DNA of 48,526 bases, taken from contig JAZDGF010000008.1 of NCBI GenBank assembly GCA_043807135.1, positions 1 through 48,526 on the forward strand, written 5' to 3'. This document shows positions 1 to 6,704 of this stretch, one piece after another. The position numbers and the translations under genes are program-made. The stretch is from Candidatus Levyibacteriota bacterium (GTDB lineage: Bacteria; Patescibacteriota; Microgenomatia; Levybacterales; UBA12049). The number at the start of each line of letters is the position of its first letter. The stretch's first letter is position 1. The notes beneath the pieces are model-generated. The model ran no database searches. It was not told the DNA's origin and saw nothing but the letters and a program-made list of their open reading frames with translations.

Positions 1-300
1 CTAAGTAATAAAGTTCCAGGTGTTAAAGCAATAATAGGGGATGCCCCTGATTATGAAGAACTTGCTTTCAAACACTTAAATGCGACTAAAGGACAAGAAT
101 ACTTATTTGGCGAGAAATATAAATACAATTACGCAAGAACAAGAACAGGAACAAGAACAGAAACAGGAATAAGAAAAAGCAGGTCTATTATCGCTGGTGT
201 TGGAAACTTCAATAGTAGTTATGGCTTGTATGTCGGCGACTGGAATGCTGGCGGTAGCTATCGCGTTGTTCATGCCGCTCCTCTGGTATTGCCACTTTAA
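1..300 (+). CDS. 3' end of probable DGR target (variable) protein, CLec-like C-terminus (5'-truncated by window edge)
   Basis: Frame 1 open from base 1 to TAA at 298-300: ...LFGEKYKYNYART...IAGVGNFNSSYGLYVGDWNAGGSYRVVHAAPLVLPL*. The VGxFxxxxGLxVxxW...AAPLV ending resembles CPR DGR targets; 30 of 33 codons in 184-282 end in C/T. Not in ORF track. Confidence 0.75.
   Translation, partial: LSNKVPGVKAIIGDAPDYEELAFKHLNATKGQEYLFGEKYKYNYARTRTGTRTETGIRKSRSIIAGVGNFNSSYGLYVGDWNAGGSYRVVHAAPLVLPL
136..177 (+). repeat. Seven degenerate in-frame hexamer tandem repeats (AGAACA-like)
   Basis: AGAACA AGAACA GGAACA AGAACA GAAACA GGAATA AGAAAA, encoding RTRTGTRTETGIRK. Confidence 0.85.
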
Positions 301-383
301 GATTTGACACTTGGTTTCCTAGCAATTTTGTCTTTTTGATTTTTGGTTTACTGGAGCATCCCGCATTTATAATGTTCCAATTC

Positions 384-492
384 CTAGTGGTAGTTGAGTT
401 GTAAGATTGGATTAAGACCAGGGTTTAACAGTTCCCTCCATTGTTCTAAACAGGCACGAATCTGGTTCCAATTCTTAAACATTTGGGGTACA
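384..492 (-). repeat. att-like scar copy 1 with orphan coding tail VPQMFKNWNQIRACLEQWRELLNPGLNPILQLNYH*
   Basis: Homologous to 1640-1745 and 3185-3221; plus-strand core GGTTCCAATTCTTAAACATTTGGGGTACA (464-492); minus frame closed by TAG just upstream (504-506). Confidence 0.75.
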
Positions 493-499
493 AAACAAT

Positions 500-528
500 T
501 TGACTAATATTAGAATTTATTGTATTAT
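500..528 (+). promoter_or_regulatory. sigma70-type promoter, repeat copy 1
   Basis: TTGACT-N17-TATTAT; near-identical copies at 1758 and 3130. Confidence 0.75.
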
Positions 529-541
529 TCCGCTAATAAAT

Positions 542-751
542 ATGACACCTGAAACGATGCACATAGCTCATAACGAGAGATTGTCGGTAAAGATAGGACA
601 AGCTGGGATTTGTAAATCTTGTCCTTTTAATCATAAGATCAGAAAGATATTTGGGACAGAAGCCTGTAGGGCGAAAATTTGGAAACCAACATTATTTAAA
701 GATAGTTTCGGAGTGGAGAAATGTACTGAGCGTATGACATATGAGCATTGA
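542..751 (+). CDS. Four-Cys microprotein, family A (69 aa)
   Basis: Start moved to ATG 542 because the TTG at 500 is the -35 box and the paralog at 1808 also starts MTPE; CxxCP-x13-C-x18-C. Confidence 0.75.
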   Translation: MTPETMHIAHNERLSVKIGQAGICKSCPFNHKIRKIFGTEACRAKIWKPTLFKDSFGVEKCTERMTYEH

Positions 752-941
752 AAAAGAGAGAGCTAATATTAGGATAATAAGTTCAAAGCCAGGATATGCT
801 CCGATTTGCTACTTCTGTCCATCCCACGATAAAGTTATGAAAACTCTTGGATTACAAGCATGCAGGGATTGGTTTAGTAAGCCAGAGATTTACGAAGATG
901 AATATGGAAATCAACACTGCAATGTAAAAGAAGGAAAATAG
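741..941 (+). CDS. Four-Cys microprotein, family A (66 aa)
   Basis: KPGYAPICYFCP...C...YEDEYGNQHC; overlaps upstream paralog by 11 nt. Confidence 0.75.
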   Translation: MSIEKERANIRIISSKPGYAPICYFCPSHDKVMKTLGLQACRDWFSKPEIYEDEYGNQHCNVKEGK

Positions 942-1178
942 ACGCTTTTACCCCAAAGCTAATTTGAGCCTAATTCCAGAAAGTATTTTCATCTTTTGAA
1001 TATAAATTATTCTTAGAGGCCCTGGTGGTCTCACAGCTATTCCCCCTCGTACTTTTACAGATTTAGTGCTATGAATTAAGCAAGACGCTATTATTGAGGC
1101 TAGAACGTAATGTTTTCATATAGTTAAATAGTTTGAATAATCAGGTATTGGGTTCATGAAGCTAGAAGTAGATATTGA

Positions 1179-1207
1179 GGTCCGAATCTCGTCCACTAGT
1201 GGGTACA
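1179..1207 (+). repeat. att-like scar, second type (GGTCCGAAT...GGGTACA)
   Basis: Same 29-nt span and ends as 464-492; minus strand reads VYPLVDEIRT within a 43-aa ORF at 1116-1247. Confidence 0.5.
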
Positions 1208-1342
1208 CAATTAGGTTGTTAAATAAGGCTATTGTTTTTCTAAACATATAATTAGCGAACTAAATTTGTATGTAGCTACGCAAATAAAATGTATTATTCT
1301 TCCGATTTTTTGTCAGGTAAAAAAATGTTGGAATAGCAATTT

Positions 1343-1567
1343 CTAAGCTCTAAGCATTGCTCTGGGGGTAAGCAATCTTTCTAAAAGTTTCTGATCGGAT
1401 AAACCCCGTGGCATAGAAAGTTTTCCTGAGGTTTTGAGGATAGAAAAACCAAGCCTATGTTTAACATACAGCCCAATCTGTTCGTCAGTAAGAGTTATAC
1501 CTGCTATCCTAGCAATACATTTGGCTTGTAATTTCGTTTTTGATATTGATTGTCTTTCAGTACTCAT
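1343..1567 (-). CDS. Hypothetical basic protein (~74 aa)
   Basis: ORF track 1343-1612; internal ATG at 1567 (MSTERQ) is the more plausible start; no recognised domain. Confidence 0.5.
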   Translation of the reverse strand: MSTERQSISKTKLQAKCIARIAGITLTDEQIGLYVKHRLGFSILKTSGKLSMPRGLSDQKLLERLLTPRAMLRA

Positions 1568-1639
1568 AATGTTAGCATTATTTACTTTATTCTTAACGTC
1601 CACACTATACATTAGTACGAATAAAATAATTTCTACTTC

Positions 1640-1745
1640 CTAATGATAGTTAAACTGCAAAGCTGATTTGAGACTGGAATACAACAGATAATTCCATTGC
1701 TCAAAGAAGCTTTTATCTGGTTTTATTCTGAAACATTTGGGCATA
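1640..1745 (-). repeat. att-like scar copy 2, frameshifted tail
   Basis: Aligns with 384-492 down to the shared stop (TTCCTAATGATAGTT vs TTCCTAGTGGTAGTT); reads QMFQN-NQIKAS-EQWNYLLYSSLKSALQFNYH* with two 1-nt deletions. Confidence 0.75.
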
Positions 1746-1757
1746 AAACAAAACAAT

Positions 1758-1786
1758 TTGACTAATATTGGAATTTATCGTATTCT
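1758..1786 (+). promoter_or_regulatory. sigma70-type promoter, repeat copy 2
   Basis: TTGACT-N17-TATTCT; 1749-1787 matches 491-529 at 36/39 nt. Confidence 0.75.
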
Positions 1787-1807
1787 TGCTTTGAAAAGTT
1801 TGTAGAT

Positions 1808-2023
1808 ATGACGCCTGAAAGAAATATAACCGATAATTTTCGAATTTCTCTAAAACCAGGATATGCAAGTATCTGCGAATCTTGTCCTTATTACAGCGAT
1901 ATCTTTGAGCAATTATGTGGATGGGAGTTTGATAATGCTAAACCATTTGAAGATAATAATGGAATACAACACTGTTCTCATAGTAAGAATACATTTGATG
2001 TTTTCTCAAAAGACCGAAAATAG
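1808..2023 (+). CDS. Four-Cys microprotein, family A (71 aa)
   Basis: KPGYASICESCP-x9-C-x18-C with FEDNNGIQHC; paralog of 542 and 741 ORFs. Confidence 0.75.
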   Translation: MTPERNITDNFRISLKPGYASICESCPYYSDIFEQLCGWEFDNAKPFEDNNGIQHCSHSKNTFDVFSKDRK

Positions 2024-2037
2024 TTTTTATTGCAGGA

Positions 2038-2064
2038 ATTCTATTCTGAAATATTTAGGGGTAC
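2038..2064 (+). repeat. att-like scar, short degenerate copy
   Basis: ATTCTGAAATATTTAGGGGTAC vs ATTCTTAAACATTT-GGGGTAC of copy 1; lies 15 nt after the 1808 ORF stop. Confidence 0.6.
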
Positions 2065-2115
2065 TAAAGTTATTTTTTCGACTTTTTAATTGGCGATTAG
2101 CTAGAAAGGAAGAGG

Positions 2116-2505
2116 TTATTTGTCTATCCCTAAAATAACTGAGAGGAAATTTAATTTTTTAGATGGTTTTGAGCCATATTTATTATCTTCCTGTTGTCCC
2201 CTTTTTAAACAGACATATAAAATCACAAAGACAGTCAGAATAAGATTTAAAAATACATAGTTTCCTGATAGACCCAAATCGTGCCATCTTCTTACTTGTA
2301 ACGAAATATTAAAAGTTAACACAGAAATCAAAGAAATTGCGTATAACATTCCAGCAAAAATAAAAACGAAGATATTGGAAATAGAGGTAACAATATAAAA
2401 TAGGTTTCCAAGGATGATAAAGTATATGCTCAAGGAAGAAATTAGTCCTAATACTAAATTCCTTCTGTTAATTCTACCTTTGAATAAATTCTCAATAATC
2501 TTCAT
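2116..2505 (-). CDS. DUF805 (YhaH-like) membrane protein
   Basis: FKGRINRR start, VRRWHDLGLSG motif, GQQEDNKYG tail, hydrophobic helices. Confidence 0.9.
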   Translation of the reverse strand: MKIIENLFKGRINRRNLVLGLISSLSIYFIILGNLFYIVTSISNIFVFIFAGMLYAISLISVLTFNISLQVRRWHDLGLSGNYVFLNLILTVFVILYVCLKRGQQEDNKYGSKPSKKLNFLSVILGIDK

Positions 2506-2718
2506 TGGCTACTTTATTGTTGTTTAATAATAACTCTTTTTAATAAGTTGTCAAATAAATTGGCAAATGAATATTGAAGTACATATTGCTCTAATCCGTA
2601 ATATATAGCCTCATATTCTTTAAGTAAAAGTTTGTAATTGTAATCTTAAGGGTGTTGAAGTAAGTTTTTTTTAAATATTGTTCTTTTTAAGCTGATTTTG
2701 GGGTTTAAACAATCTATT

Positions 2719-2916
2719 TTATTCATTATTCACTGTTGTCCTTTTCTTAACTGGATCAAATAAACTTAATTGTCCATTGTTTCCTTTAGGACACTCAAAA
2801 ATAGTAGTAGGTTCTTCAGTTAATGTAAGTCTTGCTTCTTTCGTTATTTCCATACTTCTTCCTGTTGGTGCTTCGTAACAAATAGTATTAGGACACTTTT
2901 CGCATTTTTCTACCAT
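2719..2916 (-). CDS. Four-Cys microprotein, family B (65 aa), with QLSLF motif
   Basis: ATG 2916 preceded by GAGGA; CxxC-x4-C-x28-C; paralog of 3237-3431. Confidence 0.65.
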   Translation of the reverse strand: MVEKCEKCPNTICYEAPTGRSMEITKEARLTLTEEPTTIFECPKGNNGQLSLFDPVKKRTTVNNE

Positions 2917-2923
2917 ATTTTCC

Positions 2924-3088
2924 TCATAGTGTTTTTTTTCCAAACTTCTCCAATAAACTTAGGAATATTGTAATTAGTATTATGGCAACTATTATTCCTA
3001 ACCACCAGTTACCTAAAAAGTAATTGATAAGCGTGCCAATAAGAGCAGCTATAACCACAAAAGCCCATTTAGTAGATTTTATGTTCAT
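2924..3088 (-). CDS. Small membrane protein (54 aa, two predicted TM helices)
   Basis: MNIKSTKWAFVVIAALIGTLINYFLGNWWLGIIVAIILITIFLSLLEKFGKKTL*; below ORF-track cutoff; preceded by TTGACT-N17-TATAAG (3123-3095). Confidence 0.65.
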   Translation of the reverse strand: MNIKSTKWAFVVIAALIGTLINYFLGNWWLGIIVAIILITIFLSLLEKFGKKTL

Positions 3089-3129
3089 AATTTCCTTATA
3101 CACCTTTTCTTATTTATAGTCAAAAGAAG

Positions 3130-3158
3130 TTGACTACTATTAGAGTTTACTATATTCT
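3130..3158 (+). promoter_or_regulatory. sigma70-type promoter, repeat copy 3 (no sizeable ORF downstream)
   Basis: TTGACT-N17-TATTCT; 3121-3159 matches 491-529 at 32/39 nt; back-to-back with a minus-strand TTGACT at 3118-3123. Confidence 0.65.
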
Positions 3159-3184
3159 TATGCTAAATATTTTGTAAATATGGT

Positions 3185-3221
3185 ACGGATTTGGTTCCAA
3201 TTCTGAAACATTTGGATACAC
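3185..3221 (-). repeat. att-like scar copy 3 (QMFQNWNQIR)
   Basis: 3185-3215 matches 456-486 at 28/31 nt. Confidence 0.8.
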
Positions 3222-3236
3222 GAAGTGTGAATTTCT

Positions 3237-3431
3237 TTATTTTCTTGTTATTCCTTGCATGGCAAAGACAGCAGCAGGTATTTCGCCTCTGATAACAGCA
3301 CATTCTTCTATTATTTCAGGGTCAACCATTATTTCCTTTTTCCTATTTCGGTCTGTAATTACCATTGTCCGGGTCTGATCATTATTATTAAAGCACCTAA
3401 CAGGGTTCAGGCATTTAAAGCATTCACGCAT
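3237..3431 (-). CDS. Four-Cys microprotein, family B (64 aa)
   Basis: CxxC-x5-C-x30-C, shares R(S/T)MxIT and (D/E)PxxIxEC with the 2719 ORF; upstream TTGACA-N18-TATAAT (3500-3471). Confidence 0.65.
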   Translation of the reverse strand: MRECFKCLNPVRCFNNNDQTRTMVITDRNRKKEIMVDPEIIEECAVIRGEIPAAVFAMQGITRK

Positions 3432-3520
3432 GATTTACCCCCTGACGTATTCTCTAGCCATAATTTTATTATTATATATATGGTTATTTATCCTTGTCAA
3501 TATTCCCTTCATACATGCAG

Positions 3521-3549
3521 TTGACAAAACTTCATTTATACGGTAATAT
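3521..3549 (+). promoter_or_regulatory. sigma70-type promoter for candidate sRNA
   Basis: TTGACA-N17-TAATAT. Confidence 0.7.
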
Positions 3550-3554
3550 ACTTG

Positions 3555-3633
3555 TATCTTTGATACGAAAGTATTAAAGATAGGTTATCTAGCAATAGGT
3601 ACCCCGGAAAAATCCCAGCAATGGGGTTTTTTT
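3555..3633 (+). ncRNA. Candidate small structured RNA with three GNRA hairpins, the last an intrinsic terminator
   Basis: TATCTTTGATAC-GAAA-GTATTAAAGATA; TATCTA-GCAA-TAGGTA; AAAAATCCCA-GCAA-TGGGGTTTTTTT; each stem has a G-U pair that works only on the + strand. Confidence 0.65.
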
Positions 3634-3861
3634 GTGCTTCAGTACTGAATTAATTAAACCTGTCTTAACTTTATAACTTTTAACTAAGTTGTTAAACTTA
3701 AAATAAGTGCTGATTTTTCTCTTTTTTTGGCCATAACTTAAGAGGCAGAAAGGCAGAAATATATCTTATAGCTATAAACCTTTTTTATCAATTGGAAAAT
3801 TTATTCTCGTGTAAAATGTTTAATATGTGAAATGTTTGCTACTTTAAGGTAAAATACAACT

Positions 3862-5031
3862 ATGCGTTTTATTAAGCAGATATTTATAATAAGCTTATTT
3901 TTATATACAATAACTCACAGTACAAGTAATGCTTTTGCTATTCATAATCCACTTGATACGCCAAATAATCGCTTTGGTATACATATTCTTTTTACATCAG
4001 AGATTAGTGAAGCAGCAGAATTAGTAAATAGCTCGGGTGGAGACTGGGGGTACGTAACTATTCCTATTCAAACATCTGATAAAGATATTGTTAAATGGCA
4101 AATTTTTTTAGATCAAGCAAAGAAACATCATCTAATACCAATATTAAGACTTGCAACAGACGGAGATTATTTTAATACCTCTGTTTGGAATAAGCCAAAC
4201 GATGCAGTCGTTTTAGATTTTGCAAACTTCCTAAGTTCTTTAACATGGCCTACGGAAAACAAGTATATTATCGTTTTTAACGAAGTAAATAGAGGCGATG
4301 AATGGGGAGGAGAATCAAATCCTTCAGAATATGCAAAACTACTTAGTTACGCCGTAACAGTTTTTAAATCTAAAGATCCTTCTTTTTTCATAATTTCTGC
4401 AGGGCTTGATAATGCAGCAGAGAATATAGATGGAAAATCAATGAATCAATATAGCTATTTTACTCTTATGAACGAAGCAGTACCAGGAATTTTTAGTCAA
4501 CTAGATGGAATTTCAAGTCATTCATACCCAAATCCTGGATTTAGTCAACCTCCAACAGTTTTAACAGCAAAAAGCATATCAAGCTTTAAATATGAGAGAG
4601 ACCATATTGAGTCTATGGGTGGTAAAAATCTGCCTGTTTTTATTACAGAAACAGGTTGGGTTACAAACAGTACGAATGAAAAACAACATGCAGAATATTT
4701 CAAACAGGCGTTTAATAACGTTTGGTCTGATTCAAGCATTGTAACTGTAACTCCGTTTATTCTTAATGCAGGAGCTGGCCCCTTTGTGCAGTTTTCCTTA
4801 TTAAAACCTGATAGCAATAAAACAGACAGATATAATGCTATTTTTAATTTACCAAAAACTAAAGGAAAACCTGTTTTAACAAATATTAGAACTGTTTTAG
4901 GAAAAGCTATTTTAAGCTACGTATTACCTACGAAAGACTTTTCTTCATACGAGAAAAATAAAGATTTAAACGGAGAAAATAAAGCAAATGCTACGAGAAT
5001 ATTTTTAAAATGGCTTTTAAACATTAGATAG
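3862..5031 (+). CDS. Secreted/anchored clan GH-A-like glycoside hydrolase (TIM barrel)
   Basis: N-terminal signal; VFNEVN (acid/base), SSHSYP, FITETGW (nucleophile). Confidence 0.75.
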   Translation: MRFIKQIFIISLFLYTITHSTSNAFAIHNPLDTPNNRFGIHILFTSEISEAAELVNSSGGDWGYVTIPIQTSDKDIVKWQIFLDQAKKHHLIPILRLATDGDYFNTSVWNKPNDAVVLDFANFLSSLTWPTENKYIIVFNEVNRGDEWGGESNPSEYAKLLSYAVTVFKSKDPSFFIISAGLDNAAENIDGKSMNQYSYFTLMNEAVPGIFSQLDGISSHSYPNPGFSQPPTVLTAKSISSFKYERDHIESMGGKNLPVFITETGWVTNSTNEKQHAEYFKQAFNNVWSDSSIVTVTPFILNAGAGPFVQFSLLKPDSNKTDRYNAIFNLPKTKGKPVLTNIRTVLGKAILSYVLPTKDFSSYEKNKDLNGENKANATRIFLKWLLNIR

Positions 5032-5092
5032 CGTGTTGTGGTATAATTTTTGAGGCAAACTTCGCTAACAGATTTGCATCTAGATTTTTGTT

Positions 5093-5623
5093 ATGAATAT
5101 AAGTGATACAACAAACGGTTTTTTCTATAGTCAAACATACGGCAAAGTTAATATTTATGAAATGAGTCAAAAGATTAGAGAGTTTATGGAATCTGAAATA
5201 AATAAAGAGTATTGCCTTGTAATTGGTTCAGATTCGCAAGAAAAAAATGGAAACCTGAAGATAGAAAAATACGTAATAATTGTTACCGCAGTTACCATCC
5301 ATAGGAAAGGCACTGGGGGCATATATTTTTACAAAAAAAAGAAGTTGGACAATATTAAAGGATTAAGAAATAATCTAAGAAACAAAATTTATGCAGAAAC
5401 TATGTCTTCATTAACATTTGCAGAAGAATTTATTCCTGTTTTAAAAGAAAACCTTAACGGACATTCTCCTAAGCTTGAAATTCATGTTGATGTAGGTGAA
5501 TATGGAGAATCAAGAGGTACAATTAAGGAAGTTGTTGGAATGGTTACTGGTAGTGGATATATCGCAAAAACAAAACCTTTTTCTTACGGCGCATCTAAGG
5601 TTGCTGATAGGCATACAAAATAA
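5093..5623 (+). CDS. RNase H-like YkuK (DUF458) family protein
   Basis: IGSDSQ, GxGG, EIHVDVG, KPxSYGASKVADRH motifs. Confidence 0.85.
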   Translation: MNISDTTNGFFYSQTYGKVNIYEMSQKIREFMESEINKEYCLVIGSDSQEKNGNLKIEKYVIIVTAVTIHRKGTGGIYFYKKKKLDNIKGLRNNLRNKIYAETMSSLTFAEEFIPVLKENLNGHSPKLEIHVDVGEYGESRGTIKEVVGMVTGSGYIAKTKPFSYGASKVADRHTK

Positions 5624-5632
5624 ATATTCACT

Positions 5633-6013
5633 ATGGAATGGGAAGAAGCAAAAGAAGTAAAAAAAGATATTAAAAAAATTTTACACACGCTTAACTTGTC
5701 ACATGTAAGACAAAGTAGGGTTTATTGTTTTAAAACTAAAGGATCAAAATCAAGAGCATATGCAAGAATATGGTCATTCCCAAAAATATTTCAAGATGTC
5801 CTTCAAATTGAACCTGCATACGTAATTGAAGTATTATCAAAATACTACGACAAGCTTAATGATGATCAAAAAATTCATGTTTTAATTCATGAGCTTCTGC
5901 ATATTCCTAAAAATTTCTCAGGTTCTCTGCTTCCTCATCGAGGGAGAAATAGACATTTAAATACACAAGCAAAAAAACTATTTTCAGAATACAAAAGCAA
6001 GTTAAAGAAATAA
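5633..6013 (+). CDS. Putative metallopeptidase (phage metallopeptidase-like)
   Basis: AYARIW and IHELLHIP (HExxH). Confidence 0.8.
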   Translation: MEWEEAKEVKKDIKKILHTLNLSHVRQSRVYCFKTKGSKSRAYARIWSFPKIFQDVLQIEPAYVIEVLSKYYDKLNDDQKIHVLIHELLHIPKNFSGSLLPHRGRNRHLNTQAKKLFSEYKSKLKK

Positions 6014-6014
6014 A

Positions 6015-6704
6015 ATGATTACAATTATTCACGGAGATGATCTTTCAAGTTCACGTAAACAATTTATTTCCTGCAAAGAAAAAGTTAAAAATCCAATTAG
6101 CCTTAGGGGAGAAAAAATAACTGTTACAGATCTTGTTCAAATCCTAGAGAGCTCCTCACTGTTTGAAACTGAAAAGAATCTTTTTATTGAGAATTTTTTA
6201 TCTCAAAAAAAAGCAAATAAATTCTTTAAAGAAATTCTTGAATATTTTAAAAAACATGAGCAAAGCTCAAACATCTATTTTTGGGAAGAAAAAGAAGTAA
6301 GCAAAACAGTACTTACTTTTTTTAAGACAGCAGATATAAGTTTGTTTAAATTTCCACAAAGCTTATTTCTGTTTCTGGATAATATAAAACCTAATAATTA
6401 TGAAAATGTCCTTTATTTTCATAAAACTATTTTAAAAACCTCAGAAGAACTTGTTTTTTTTATGATCGTAAGACAATTCAGACTAATGCTTGCACTTCTT
6501 TTAAAAACAGACTCCCCTATTGACGAGATAGCTAGAATTGCACCTTGGCAAAGAGGTAAGCTTGAAAGGCAGGCAAACATTTTTGGATTAGAAAATATTA
6601 AAAGAATCTATAGTAAATTATATTTACTAGACTATAAGCAAAAGTATGGCCTTACATCTCTTCCTTTAGTACAAAATATTGACTTTTTTTTAATGGAAAT
6701 ATAA
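6015..6704 (+). CDS. holA: DNA polymerase III delta subunit-like (short form)
   Basis: MITIIHGDD start, SLF motif, C-terminal PWQxxK...DYKQKYG helix pattern. Confidence 0.7.
   Translation: MITIIHGDDLSSSRKQFISCKEKVKNPISLRGEKITVTDLVQILESSSLFETEKNLFIENFLSQKKANKFFKEILEYFKKHEQSSNIYFWEEKEVSKTVLTFFKTADISLFKFPQSLFLFLDNIKPNNYENVLYFHKTILKTSEELVFFMIVRQFRLMLALLLKTDSPIDEIARIAPWQRGKLERQANIFGLENIKRIYSKLYLLDYKQKYGLTSLPLVQNIDFFLMEI

What the first reader, a model, noticed from the sequence alone, without database searches (positions are those of the whole stretch)
384..3221. Candidate integron-like array of miniature cassettes bounded by tRNA-derived att-like sites
Seen: at least five same-orientation sites (464-492, 1179-1207, ~1719-1745, ~2038-2064, ~3193-3221) share all or part of GGTTCCAAT...TTTGGGGTACA. 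The left end mimics a tRNA T-loop (GGTTCGAAT). The right end GGGT-A-CA mimics a tRNA 3' end as written in this genome, where all three tRNAs end discriminator+CA. Directly right of two sites is the same 39-nt promoter block and a paralogous four-Cys ORF; 1745-2064 is a clean ~320-bp site-promoter-ORF-site unit. Inference: repeated integration at one tRNA (predicted on the + strand left of the window, possibly tRNA-Leu) stacked tiny non-autonomous cassettes, each with its own promoter, mobilised by a recombinase in trans. This is functionally like an integron but without attC or intI, and is the best candidate for an undescribed system here.
Basis: partly seen in the sequence, partly recalled or inferred. 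Interest (0 to 1): 0.9.

Follow-up and report, generated by a model that had tools for sequence, protein, structure and literature searches.

The report
Serine-recombinase scar array beside tRNA-Glu
The repeated sites are cut-off tail ends of a serine recombinase gene that double as its attachment-site arm, and they mark a stack of small gene cassettes inserted one after another next to a tRNA-Glu gene in a groundwater Levybacteria (CPR) genome.

Summary
Four same-strand copies of the site core lie in window 464-3221, against 0.15 expected, plus a variant copy at 1133-1207.

The sites are not tRNA-derived. Each full copy is a ~110-nt module. Its antisense strand encodes the last ~35 codons of a large serine recombinase (LSR) gene, VPQMFxNWNQIRxSLEQW...NYH*. 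It ends in the core GGGGTAC, which is also the 3' end of tRNA-Glu(UUC).

That tRNA lies on contig C16. A contiguous same-genus relative shows that C16 and the window head are two ends of one locus.

In three relatives an LSR reads antisense into tRNA-Glu, and the module sits at the far end of a 6-8 kb element. So attP lies inside the LSR gene, and integration detaches the tail.

Tail modules occur in 51 of 245 genomes of the order, never joined to a full LSR. They often form ~1-kb arrays behind tRNA-Glu.

Two same-genus pairs differ by whole recombinase-less cassettes at the tRNA junction.

This genome has no cognate LSR. Movement in trans is inferred, not shown. Closest analogues: SCC composite islands, integrons, SSV1-type split integrases.

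The parts
1..300 (+). 3' part of a cargo ORF (open at the contig start), belonging to the cassette that ends with module A1.
   Evidence: ORF list; no Pfam family. A Logan contig of run X1 runs about 1.6 kb beyond the window start (record 1).
376..492 (+). Module A1. The antisense strand 387-491 encodes an intact recombinase tail, VPQMFKNWNQIRACLEQWRELLNPGLNPILQLNYH, with its stop at 384-386. The right end GGTTCCAATTCTTAAACATTTGGGGTACA is the attP P arm plus the core shared with tRNA-Glu.
   Evidence: tail-profile E = 6e-22.
497..528 (+). Promoter block 1 (TTGACT-17-TATTAT), directly to the right of the crossover.
542..751 (+). Four-Cys ORF 1 (69 aa), cargo.
   Evidence: no Pfam family.
741..941 (+). 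Four-Cys ORF 2 (66 aa), a paralogue of ORF 1.
1133..1207 (+). Module B1 (type B). It ends GAGGTCCGAATCTCGTCCACTAGTGGGTACA, with the same 20-nt spacing between the T-loop-like motif and the end as type A. By my reading of the antisense strand it would encode a short tail, VPLVDEIRTSISTSSF* (the C16 copies read VPTSGRASDLNSYF*).
   Evidence: Found only in this genome among 245 genomes of the order.
1208..1232 (+). F flank (caattaggttgttaaataaggcta). It repeats the flank that follows tRNA-Glu on C16. It is a remnant of the recombinase 'PFNLI' coding region and can form a hairpin.
   Evidence: LSR aa 475-514 aligns to C16 1167-1063.
1343..1612 (-). Cargo ORF, 89 aa.
1633..1745 (+). Module A2. The tail is frameshifted and the core has decayed to GGGCATA.
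   Evidence: tail profile matches only positions 15-35.
1748..2023 (+). Promoter block 2 (1755-1786) and four-Cys ORF 3 (1808-2023, 71 aa).
   Evidence: No relative besides itself in the 5.8-billion-protein search.
2038..2064 (+). Module A3, cut down to the ~27-nt P arm (GGAATTCTATTCTGAAATATTTAGGGGTAC).
2059..2133 (-). Fossil of the recombinase C-terminus (P' arm). It reads ..PLPF*LIAN*KVEKITLVP and is 60% identical over 25 aa to LSR residues 466-490. It abuts module A3, which is the attP-like junction expected from tandem insertion.
   Evidence: tblastn E = 0.001; translation; nucleotide match to the P' arms of relatives.
2116..2505 (-). Cargo gene: DUF805 membrane protein, 129 aa.
   Evidence: Pfam E = 2.6e-16.
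2719..3103 (-). Two small cargo ORFs (74 aa with four Cys; 59 aa membrane protein). The stretch 2673-2712 just upstream matches the flank that follows module B1 on C16.
   Evidence: the 1207-to-2673 'joint' with C16 letters in between.
3120..3221 (+). Promoter block 3 (75% copy) fused to module A4. A4 is truncated to its right ~40 nt, with the core decayed to GGATACAC.
3237..3431 (-). Cargo ORF, 64 aa, in the last (oldest) segment.
3521..3640 (+). Right border of the island: a conserved promoter, a ~90-nt three-hairpin transcript and a terminator. It is present right after the array in both same-genus relatives.
   Evidence: no Rfam match at E up to 5.

Best explanation
Window 1-3640 is the distal half of a variable island that begins at tRNA-Glu(UUC) on contig C16.

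The island is a stack of at least 11 short segments (0.3-1.4 kb, one to three genes each). Each ends, on the side away from the tRNA, in a module that is the left (P) arm of the attP site of a Levybacteria-wide family of large serine recombinases (LSRs).

In these elements the LSR gene runs across attP. After integration at the 3' end of tRNA-Glu, the gene body reads antisense into the tRNA and takes a tRNA-encoded C-terminus. The last ~35 codons, together with the P arm, are left at the far end of the element as attR.

The module mimics the tRNA end because the same enzyme binds both. It carries a T-loop-like GGTTCSAAT motif 5 bp further from the crossover than in the tRNA, as is known for the zinc-ribbon-domain motif in attP versus attB. 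It also carries the same core, GGGGTAC.

Each new arrival inserted between the tRNA and the previous one. The oldest modules are therefore furthest from the tRNA and are the most decayed.

The segments carry no recombinase. I infer that they were delivered and removed as whole units by an LSR supplied by a transient autonomous element. The most likely route is that such an element excises using a more distal module as attR, carries the cassettes in between to a new host, integrates at tRNA-Glu, and later leaves on its own using its own module.

This genome has no cognate LSR, so the array is at rest now.

Shown: what the module is, the tRNA anchor, the LSR link in relatives, and unit-wise differences between relatives. 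Inferred: the 5-bp reading as zinc-ribbon-domain binding, the pick-up and drop-off route, and any role of the tail swap.
For: (1) Anchor. C16 carries tRNA-Glu(UUC) at 1066-1140, ending GGGGTACA. A perfect site copy lies at 1854-1882 and more modules lie downstream. The C16 end matches the window's promoter block at 96%. Same-genus genome G001 has tRNA-Glu, four modules, then homologues of window 3520-3639 and 3842+ on one contig.

(2) The module is coding on its antisense strand. Thirty distinct tails show pairwise differences at codon positions 1/2/3 of 0.357/0.198/0.396. Ser14 is kept in 25 of 30 using 9 codons, and Leu15 in 28 of 30 using 8 codons. See also alignment A3.

(3) LSR link. In G036, G033 and G051 an LSR of about 500-515 aa (Resolvase and Recombinase domains, weak Zn ribbon) overlaps tRNA-Glu in antisense. 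A module lies 6-8 kb downstream. In 3 of 3 cases the tail is in frame with the LSR at the shared V-P / V-T codons.

(4) The same recombinase fragment occurs in both states. Metagenome contig L118 reads ...FKLIHALGDDNVDLV-TQMFLNWNQ...NYH*, joined to the tail with one internal stop. Protein P0002, which is 97% identical, reads ...DLV-TPRKFES, joined to tRNA antisense.

(5) The core covaries with the target. Modules end GGGGTAC behind tRNA-Glu(UUC) and GGGTCAC behind tRNA-Glu(CUC).

(6) The T-loop-like motif lies 19 nt from the core end in modules and 14 nt in the tRNA, for both isoacceptors. Rutherford et al. 2013 place the zinc-ribbon-domain motif at positions 16-24 in attP and 11-19 in attB (passages read).

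(7) Generality. The tail profile hits 51 of 245 genomes with 75 matches. In 73 of 75 the open frame is at most 101 aa, and none is joined to a full LSR. tRNA-Glu lies upstream in the same orientation in 10 of 14 loci fetched. In 23 of 30 LSR loci of the family the ORF ends in or within 200 nt of an antisense tRNA.

(8) Unit-wise differences. The ORF185 cassette is first in G000 and second in G001. G197 has two extra recombinase-less cassettes (1.9 kb) between the tRNA and a cassette that is 94.7% identical to the first cassette of G193. The break lies within 8 nt of the core.

(9) No LSR body survives in the arrays. In G000 only the last ~25 codons remain, at 2059-2133 and in the F flank. There is none in 8 arrays of relatives at E up to 1.

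(10) Decay increases with distance from the tRNA in G000, G193 and G088.
Against: - No recombination event was observed. The four runs laid are assembled contigs. They show extra module copies but no circle and no empty site.
- G000, G001 and G002 have no cognate LSR at E <= 1e-40. The only LSR in G000, on C3 beside tRNA-Asn, is 24% identical.
- Canonical serine integrases do not recombine attP with attL. Repeated insertion at a tRNA whose right flank keeps changing requires a loosely specified right half-site. That is inferred only from the lack of any conserved B' flank.
- The sequences to the right of the modules are heterogeneous. Most module-flank junctions are therefore not complete attP sites.
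- The shared ORF185 cassette ends in different module variants in G000 and G001, so units are not perfectly conserved.
- The F flank sits 28 nt closer to the core than the same motif does in intact elements. I cannot explain this.
- Type B modules have no relatives in the order and no known recombinase.
- The C16-to-window gap is unsequenced.
- 6 of 30 full-length tail matches carry stops and 45 of 75 matches are partial, so many copies are plainly decaying.
Confidence: 0.72

Rival explanations
1. Decay in place. Each module is the attR scar of a complete 6-8 kb LSR element that integrated at tRNA-Glu. The recombinase and most of the cargo were later lost by ordinary deletion. No cassette ever moved as a unit, and the ~1-kb spacing is simply what genome streamlining leaves behind.
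For: - Recombinase C-terminal fossils exist at window 2059-2133, in the F flanks, and as the ~115-codon fragment in L118 and P0002.
- Modules decay with distance from the tRNA.
- No cognate LSR is found in the genus.
- Right flanks are heterogeneous.
- Streamlining of CPR genomes is general knowledge.
Against: - Thirty-five-odd cassettes in 9 arrays keep no recombinase piece longer than ~25 codons, whereas random deletion should leave pieces of all sizes.
- G197 and G193 are 94.7% identical in the neighbouring cassette, yet differ by two complete recombinase-less units with intact tails, with the break at the core.
- The identical junction GTACA|CGATTAGG recurs before different cargo in G000 and G001.
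Confidence: 0.2
2. A true integron, or a cluster of attC sites lacking an integrase: cassettes ending in attC hairpins and moved by an IntI tyrosine recombinase.
For: Array of mostly single-gene cassettes beside a fixed site, all sites in one orientation.
Against: - The two tyrosine recombinases of the genome score 114.7 and 65.5 bits on the integron-integrase model, against a cut-off of 265. They look like XerC/D and lie on other contigs.
- The modules have no attC-like imperfect palindrome. Consensus folds give -2.55 and -7.05 kcal/mol with no compensatory pairs.
- The modules are coding sequence of a serine recombinase.
Confidence: 0.01
3. Ordinary tandem duplication and divergence of a local segment, with no site-specific recombination.
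For: Paralogous four-Cys ORFs and promoter blocks occur inside the array.
Against: - Most segments carry unrelated genes.
- The module is conserved across at least 35 genera and always lies behind tRNA-Glu.
- Its core tracks the tRNA isoacceptor.
- Differences between relatives fall at the core.
Confidence: 0.04
4. The modules are genes for a structured small RNA or a tRNA-like RNA.
For: T-loop-like motif, a tRNA-like 3' end, and a possible 8-bp pairing between the module's two ends.
Against: - No Rfam match at E up to 5, and ARAGORN finds nothing there.
- 0 of 7 and 0 of 16 predicted pairs show compensatory change.
- The variation follows codon positions on the opposite strand.
- Many copies are truncated.
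Confidence: 0.03

Closest known systems
Staphylococcal cassette chromosome (SCC/SCCmec) composite islands with pseudo-SCC elements. Seen here: search listing and abstracts, e.g. bioRxiv 10.1101/336396. The mechanism is otherwise recalled.
   Same: Large serine recombinases are the enzymes. The target is the 3' end of a conserved housekeeping gene. Cassettes are stacked in tandem and bounded by repeated att sequences. Some cassettes lack a recombinase and are thought to be moved in trans. CcrB is the best-ranked NCBIfam model for the LSR here, though far below its cut-off (134 against 900 bits).
   Different: The target here is tRNA-Glu, not rlmH. Cassettes are 0.3-1.4 kb rather than 3-60 kb. 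The boundary repeat is a ~110-nt piece of the recombinase gene itself. The host is a CPR bacterium. No recombinase is present in this genome.
Integrons (IntI, attI, attC cassettes)
   Same: It works alike in outline: a fixed insertion point, a one-directional array of small cassettes, the newest next to the insertion point, and many recombinase-less arrays.
   Different: The recombinase is a serine type, not tyrosine. There are no attC hairpins. Cassettes lie in either orientation, some with their own promoter. The recombinase is not resident beside the array. Membership was tested and not met.
SSV1-type archaeal integrases, whose attP lies inside the int gene. Seen here: listing of the review PMC8371274. 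Details are recalled.
   Same: The recombinase gene spans attP and is split by integration into a tRNA gene. It is whole only in the excised form.
   Different: Those are tyrosine recombinases of archaeal viruses. Here only the last ~35 codons are detached, and the gene body takes a replacement C-terminus from tRNA antisense.
Serine integrase attP/attB architecture (Listeria A118-type integrase; Rutherford et al. 2013, PMC3783163; passages read)
   Same: The same recognition motif occurs in the P and B half-sites, 5 bp further from the crossover in attP. The core of identity is short.
   Different: Binding was not tested here. The right half-sites (B' and P') show no conservation beyond what coding sequence explains.
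tRNA-anchored tandem islands such as Prochlorococcus tycheposons (recalled, no call), and integration-dependent immunity of mycobacteriophages, where attP lies within the repressor gene (listing only)
   Same: Tandem cargo-bearing elements at tRNA genes, including integrase-less satellites. A protein's C-terminus is switched by the integration state.
   Different: Those systems use tyrosine integrases. Their boundary repeats are partial tRNA copies. In the phages the switched gene is the repressor, not the recombinase.

Membership tests
Integron | IntI-type tyrosine recombinase (integron-integrase model) | tested here: not met
   The two tyrosine recombinases of the genome score 114.7 and 65.5 bits on TIGR02249, against a cut-off of 265. 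Their best matches are XerC/D, and they lie on C5 and C1.
Integron | attC sites: imperfect inverted repeats that fold as single-strand hairpins | tested here: not met
   Consensus folds give -2.55 kcal/mol (type A) and -7.05 kcal/mol (type B), with no compensatory pairs. The variation follows codons.
Integron | Array of cassettes next to a fixed attI site, with a common promoter | tested here: inconclusive
   There is a fixed insertion point, the tRNA-Glu 3' end. No common promoter was found. Some cassettes carry their own promoter, and cassette orientations are mixed.
Large serine recombinase integrative element | Recombinase with Resolvase, Recombinase and zinc-ribbon domains | tested here: met
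   Met in relatives. The G036 LSR scores Resolvase 2e-35, Recombinase 3e-17, Zn_ribbon_recom 9e-4 (below cut-off). The G033 LSR matches the first two domains. Not met in this genome at this locus.
Large serine recombinase integrative element | attL and attR share only a short core at the crossover | tested here: met
   The shared stretch is GGTACTAAA in G036 and GGGTCAC in G033 and G051.
Large serine recombinase integrative element | Recognition motif 5 bp further from the centre in attP than in attB | tested here: met
   By sequence only: GGTTCSAAT lies 19 nt from the core end in modules and 14 nt in tRNA-Glu, for both isoacceptors. Published rule read. Binding cannot be tested with these tools.
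Large serine recombinase integrative element | Recombination between attP and attB catalysed by the enzyme | not testable with these tools
   Indirect evidence only: the same recombinase fragment is joined to the tail in L118 and to tRNA antisense in P0002.
SCC-type composite island | Ccr recombinases and insertion in rlmH | tested here: not met
   The CcrB model scores 134 bits against a cut-off of 900. The target is tRNA-Glu.
SCC-type composite island | Tandem cassettes bounded by repeated att sequences, some without a recombinase | tested here: met
SSV1-type split integrase | attP inside the recombinase gene, which is split on integration into a tRNA | tested here: met
   The family itself (tyrosine recombinase) is not met.

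The most novel reading that the evidence does not exclude
Levybacteria carry a serine-recombinase counterpart of the integron. tRNA-Glu acts as the fixed insertion site. Every tail module is a working attR that can both close the circle and complete the recombinase gene. A visiting LSR element can therefore pick up any run of resident single-gene cassettes, carry them to another cell, and drop them behind that cell's tRNA-Glu. Selection at the level of the element keeps the tail codons intact in arrays that have no recombinase of their own. The swap between the native tail and the tRNA-encoded C-terminus sets the direction of the reaction.
Probability: 0.3. Interest if true: 0.85.

Novelty: new variant of a known kind. 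Interest (0 to 1): 0.62.

Why it matters
- It explains a hypervariable spot in very small CPR genomes as a site-specific entry point for genes. In one relative the cargo is an Argonaute/SIR2 pair.
- It defines a large natural set of serine recombinases with readable attP and attB sites on tRNA 3' ends. This could help genetics in CPR bacteria and the study of integrase target choice.
- A recombinase whose C-terminus depends on whether it is integrated offers a testable built-in direction switch.
- Recombinase-less cassettes outnumber recombinases: tails occur in 51 of 245 genomes, but the close LSR clade in only 3. This poses the same question as clusters of attC sites without integrases.
- My four literature searches found no description of this arrangement. 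They cover open-access text only.

Tried and rejected
- Rfam scan of window 1-5000 at E up to 5: only three chance-level snoRNA/lncRNA hits, none at the sites.
- Consensus RNA folds of type A and type B modules: weak, with no covariation.
- A reading of the sites as displaced tRNA 3' halves: rejected. There are 5 extra bases between the T-loop-like motif and the end, and the variation follows antisense codons.
- Whether the genome's own LSR on C3 (beside tRNA-Asn) could be the enzyme: it is only 24% identical to the tRNA-Glu clade, so this stays open but unlikely.
- Search for a free, excised form. The tail profile found no relative in IMG/VR viral contigs. In 29 genome loci and 50 metagenome loci, every tail found by my pattern had at most 56 in-frame codons open upstream. 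The only recombinase-joined case is L118, which has one stop.
- Public runs. All four runs laid are Logan contigs. The apparent joints (496 to 1625, 1669 to 452, 1207 to 2673) are further module copies or the C16 paralogue, not deletions or circles. This gives no verdict on excision.
- Four-Cys ORFs: no Pfam family, no relative besides itself in the 5.8-billion-protein search at near lengths, and none in the loci of relatives. Their function is unknown. I considered a directionality factor, but nothing supports it.
- Type B module: no convincing copy in 244 other genomes of the order.
- Structure prediction, complex prediction and the protein atlas were not used.
- Supplements of papers were not consulted. 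Figure S6 of Rutherford et al. may bear on how general the 5-bp rule is.

Full report
OBSERVATION

The window is contig C8 of a 670-kb, 21-contig, 98%-complete genome with about 33% G+C. Named relatives found with the tail profile are Candidatus Levybacteria / Levyibacteriota (Patescibacteria, CPR) from groundwater and similar samples.

The core 16-mer, allowing up to 2 mismatches, occurs four times. All four are in the first 3.2 kb and nowhere else in 48.5 kb, against 0.15 expected.

Site 2 is a separate subtype, type B. The sites are the right ends of longer modules of about 75-120 nt.

The promoter block occurs twice exactly and a third time at 75% identity. There are three four-Cys ORFs, 36-40% identical to each other.

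THE ANCHOR

A genome-wide scan found a perfect copy of the site on contig C16. C16 reads as follows:
- tRNA-Lys, then a mechanosensitive-channel-like gene, then tRNA-Glu(UUC) at 1066-1140, ending ...ACGGGGTACA.
- Then, in order: a cassette, module A (1763-1882), a cassette, module B, a cassette containing an IS fragment, module B, a permease cassette, a variant module A.
- At the contig end, the same promoter block as window 497-545.

The flank after the tRNA (cgattaggttg...) recurs after C16 module A and after window module B1.

In same-genus genome G001 one contig carries the same left genes, tRNA-Glu(UUC), four modules, then homologues of window 3520-3639 and 3842-6300. C16 and the window head are therefore the two ends of one island, with an unassembled gap between them. 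Logan contigs show further module copies at the same depth as the genome.

In G002 the same tRNA is followed by only a ~370-nt GIY-YIG cassette before the same right-border element.

WHAT THE MODULE IS

BLASTN found the module in 18 of 61 related genomes, across genera and families. In the relatives examined it lies downstream of tRNA-Glu, either the UUC or the CUC isoacceptor.

In G036 and G033 a large serine recombinase lies on the opposite strand and reads through the tRNA. The C-termini are ...TTLVPPRGVEPLIPW... and ...TTLVTPREFESRFSE. G051 is the same. The domains are Resolvase and Recombinase, with a weak zinc-ribbon match.

The antisense strand of the module is an open frame, V[PT]QMFxNWNQIRxSLEQWKxIIxP...NYH*, followed by a stop. 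Across 30 distinct copies the second codon position varies least (0.198, against 0.357 and 0.396). Ser and Leu columns are kept through 8-9 different codons. The first ten codons, which are the DNA site, are almost invariant at the base level.

In all three recombinase-bearing loci the tail is in frame with the recombinase at the shared core codons. The gene therefore runs across attP. Integration swaps its last ~35 codons for tRNA antisense and leaves the tail at attR.

A direct natural example supports this. The same recombinase C-terminal fragment is joined to the tail in metagenome contig L118, with one internal stop. It is joined to tRNA-Glu antisense in protein P0002, which is 97% identical.

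Inside the window, 2059-2133 (minus strand) is a fossil of recombinase residues 466-490 lying directly against truncated module A3. That is the junction expected when one element inserts next to another.

WHY IT LOOKS LIKE A tRNA END

The module core follows the target: GGGGTAC behind tRNA-Glu(UUC) and GGGTCAC behind tRNA-Glu(CUC).

The T-loop-like GGTTCSAAT lies 19 nt from the end of the core in modules and 14 nt in the tRNA. Rutherford et al. 2013 showed that the zinc-ribbon-domain motif of serine integrases lies 5 bp nearer the centre in attB than in attP (passages read).

I infer that the module's right ~30 nt is the P half-site and the tRNA's T arm and acceptor end is the B half-site.

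The right half-sites show no conservation between loci apart from recombinase coding sequence. This would allow insertion next to the tRNA whatever lies beyond it. That step is inference.

HOW GENERAL

- The tail profile finds 75 copies in 51 of 245 genomes of the order.
- Thirty cover at least 34 of 35 positions, and 24 of those have no stop.
- In 73 of 75 the open frame is at most 101 aa, and none is attached to a full recombinase.
- Twelve genomes have two or more copies within 5 kb on one contig.
- Among 14 loci fetched, 10 have tRNA-Glu upstream in the same orientation.
- Recombinases of the wider family occur in 61 of 245 genomes. None is in the three genomes of this genus, and only three are at least 47% identical to the G036 enzyme.
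- Of 30 recombinase loci, 23 have the gene ending in or within 200 nt of an antisense tRNA: Glu 12, Lys 5, Leu 2, Phe 2, Pro 2.

Reading into a tRNA is therefore a family habit.

ARE THE CASSETTES UNITS?

For:
- No recombinase fragment longer than about 25 codons survives in the G000 array or in eight arrays of relatives.
- The ORF185 cassette is first after the tRNA in G000 and second in G001.
- G197 has two extra complete cassettes with intact tails between the tRNA and a cassette that is 94.7% identical to the first cassette of G193. The break lies within 8 nt of the core.

Against:
- No event was seen.
- There is no recombinase in this genus.
- Distal modules are decayed (A2 is frameshifted; A3 and A4 are truncated).
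- The junctions to the right of the modules are not complete attP sites.
- The shared cassette ends in different module variants in the two genomes.

The route I think most likely keeps to known serine-integrase reactions. A visiting autonomous element excises with a more distal module, carries the cassettes between, integrates elsewhere, and later leaves with its own module. I give unit-wise delivery in trans about 0.5-0.6 and pure decay in place about 0.2.

COMPARISON AND NOVELTY

The arrangement works like an integron in outline but fails every integron membership test.

It is closest in mechanism to SCC composite islands: serine recombinases, the 3' end of a conserved gene, and recombinase-less cassettes in tandem (abstracts). 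It resembles SSV1-type integrases in having attP inside the recombinase gene (listing).

Searches for serine recombinases with tRNA targets in CPR or Patescibacteria returned nothing. These cover open-access text only.

I rate it a new variant of a known kind. It was wrong on the tRNA's identity and on the origin of the sites, and it overstated how unprecedented the system is.

Noticed in passing
window 3521-3640 (+): A conserved promoter (TTGACA-17-TAATAT) is followed by a ~90-nt transcript-like element with three hairpins, the last a terminator. It forms the right border of the island in all three genomes of the genus. It is 83-88% identical between them, and one pair shows a compensatory change. 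There is no Rfam match.
   Followed up: partly
L031 4718-7953 (G036): The autonomous LSR element at tRNA-Glu carries a Piwi-domain protein (684 aa) next to a SIR2-like protein (397 aa). This looks like a short Argonaute defence pair travelling as cargo.
   Followed up: partly
G000 contig C3 174055-177000 (L003): A second large serine recombinase (436 aa) is only 24% identical to the tRNA-Glu clade. It lies ~160 nt downstream of tRNA-Asn(GUU), pointing towards it, next to a DNA methyltransferase-like gene. This is probably another integrated element.
   Followed up: partly
L027 (G042 contig C1, 455.6-458.8 kb): In three of four modules a ~45-nt insert (…gagcacaaagggcgagaaccc…) interrupts the site inside GGTTCC|AATTC. 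It may be a small repeat element that targets the module.
   Followed up: no
L155 2334-2695 (G002): Behind the same tRNA-Glu there is a ~370-nt cassette with a small GIY-YIG-like ORF. It ends in an imperfect copy of the tRNA's own last ~23 nt, without the 5-bp shift. This is a different kind of boundary from the LSR modules. A similar GIY-YIG ORF follows a module in L029 (7914-8303).
   Followed up: no
L004 (C16) 3872-4102 (-): A 76-aa fragment of a DDE transposase (rve_3, E = 6.5e-5) lies inside one cassette of the array.
   Followed up: no
L068 4687-5463 (G067): One tail copy has lost its stop. It now forms the N-terminus of a 258-aa ORF that reads towards tRNA-Glu(CUC).
   Followed up: no
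G000 whole genome: ARAGORN finds 35 tRNA genes and none for Cys, His or Ile(GAU), with only one CAU-anticodon tRNA. Several tRNAs sit at contig ends, so tRNA-linked repeats may be breaking the assembly.
   Followed up: no
G000 contig C1 54294-55240 (L002): A 286-aa Xer-like tyrosine recombinase ends about 10 nt from a convergent tRNA-Ile(UAU).
   Followed up: no
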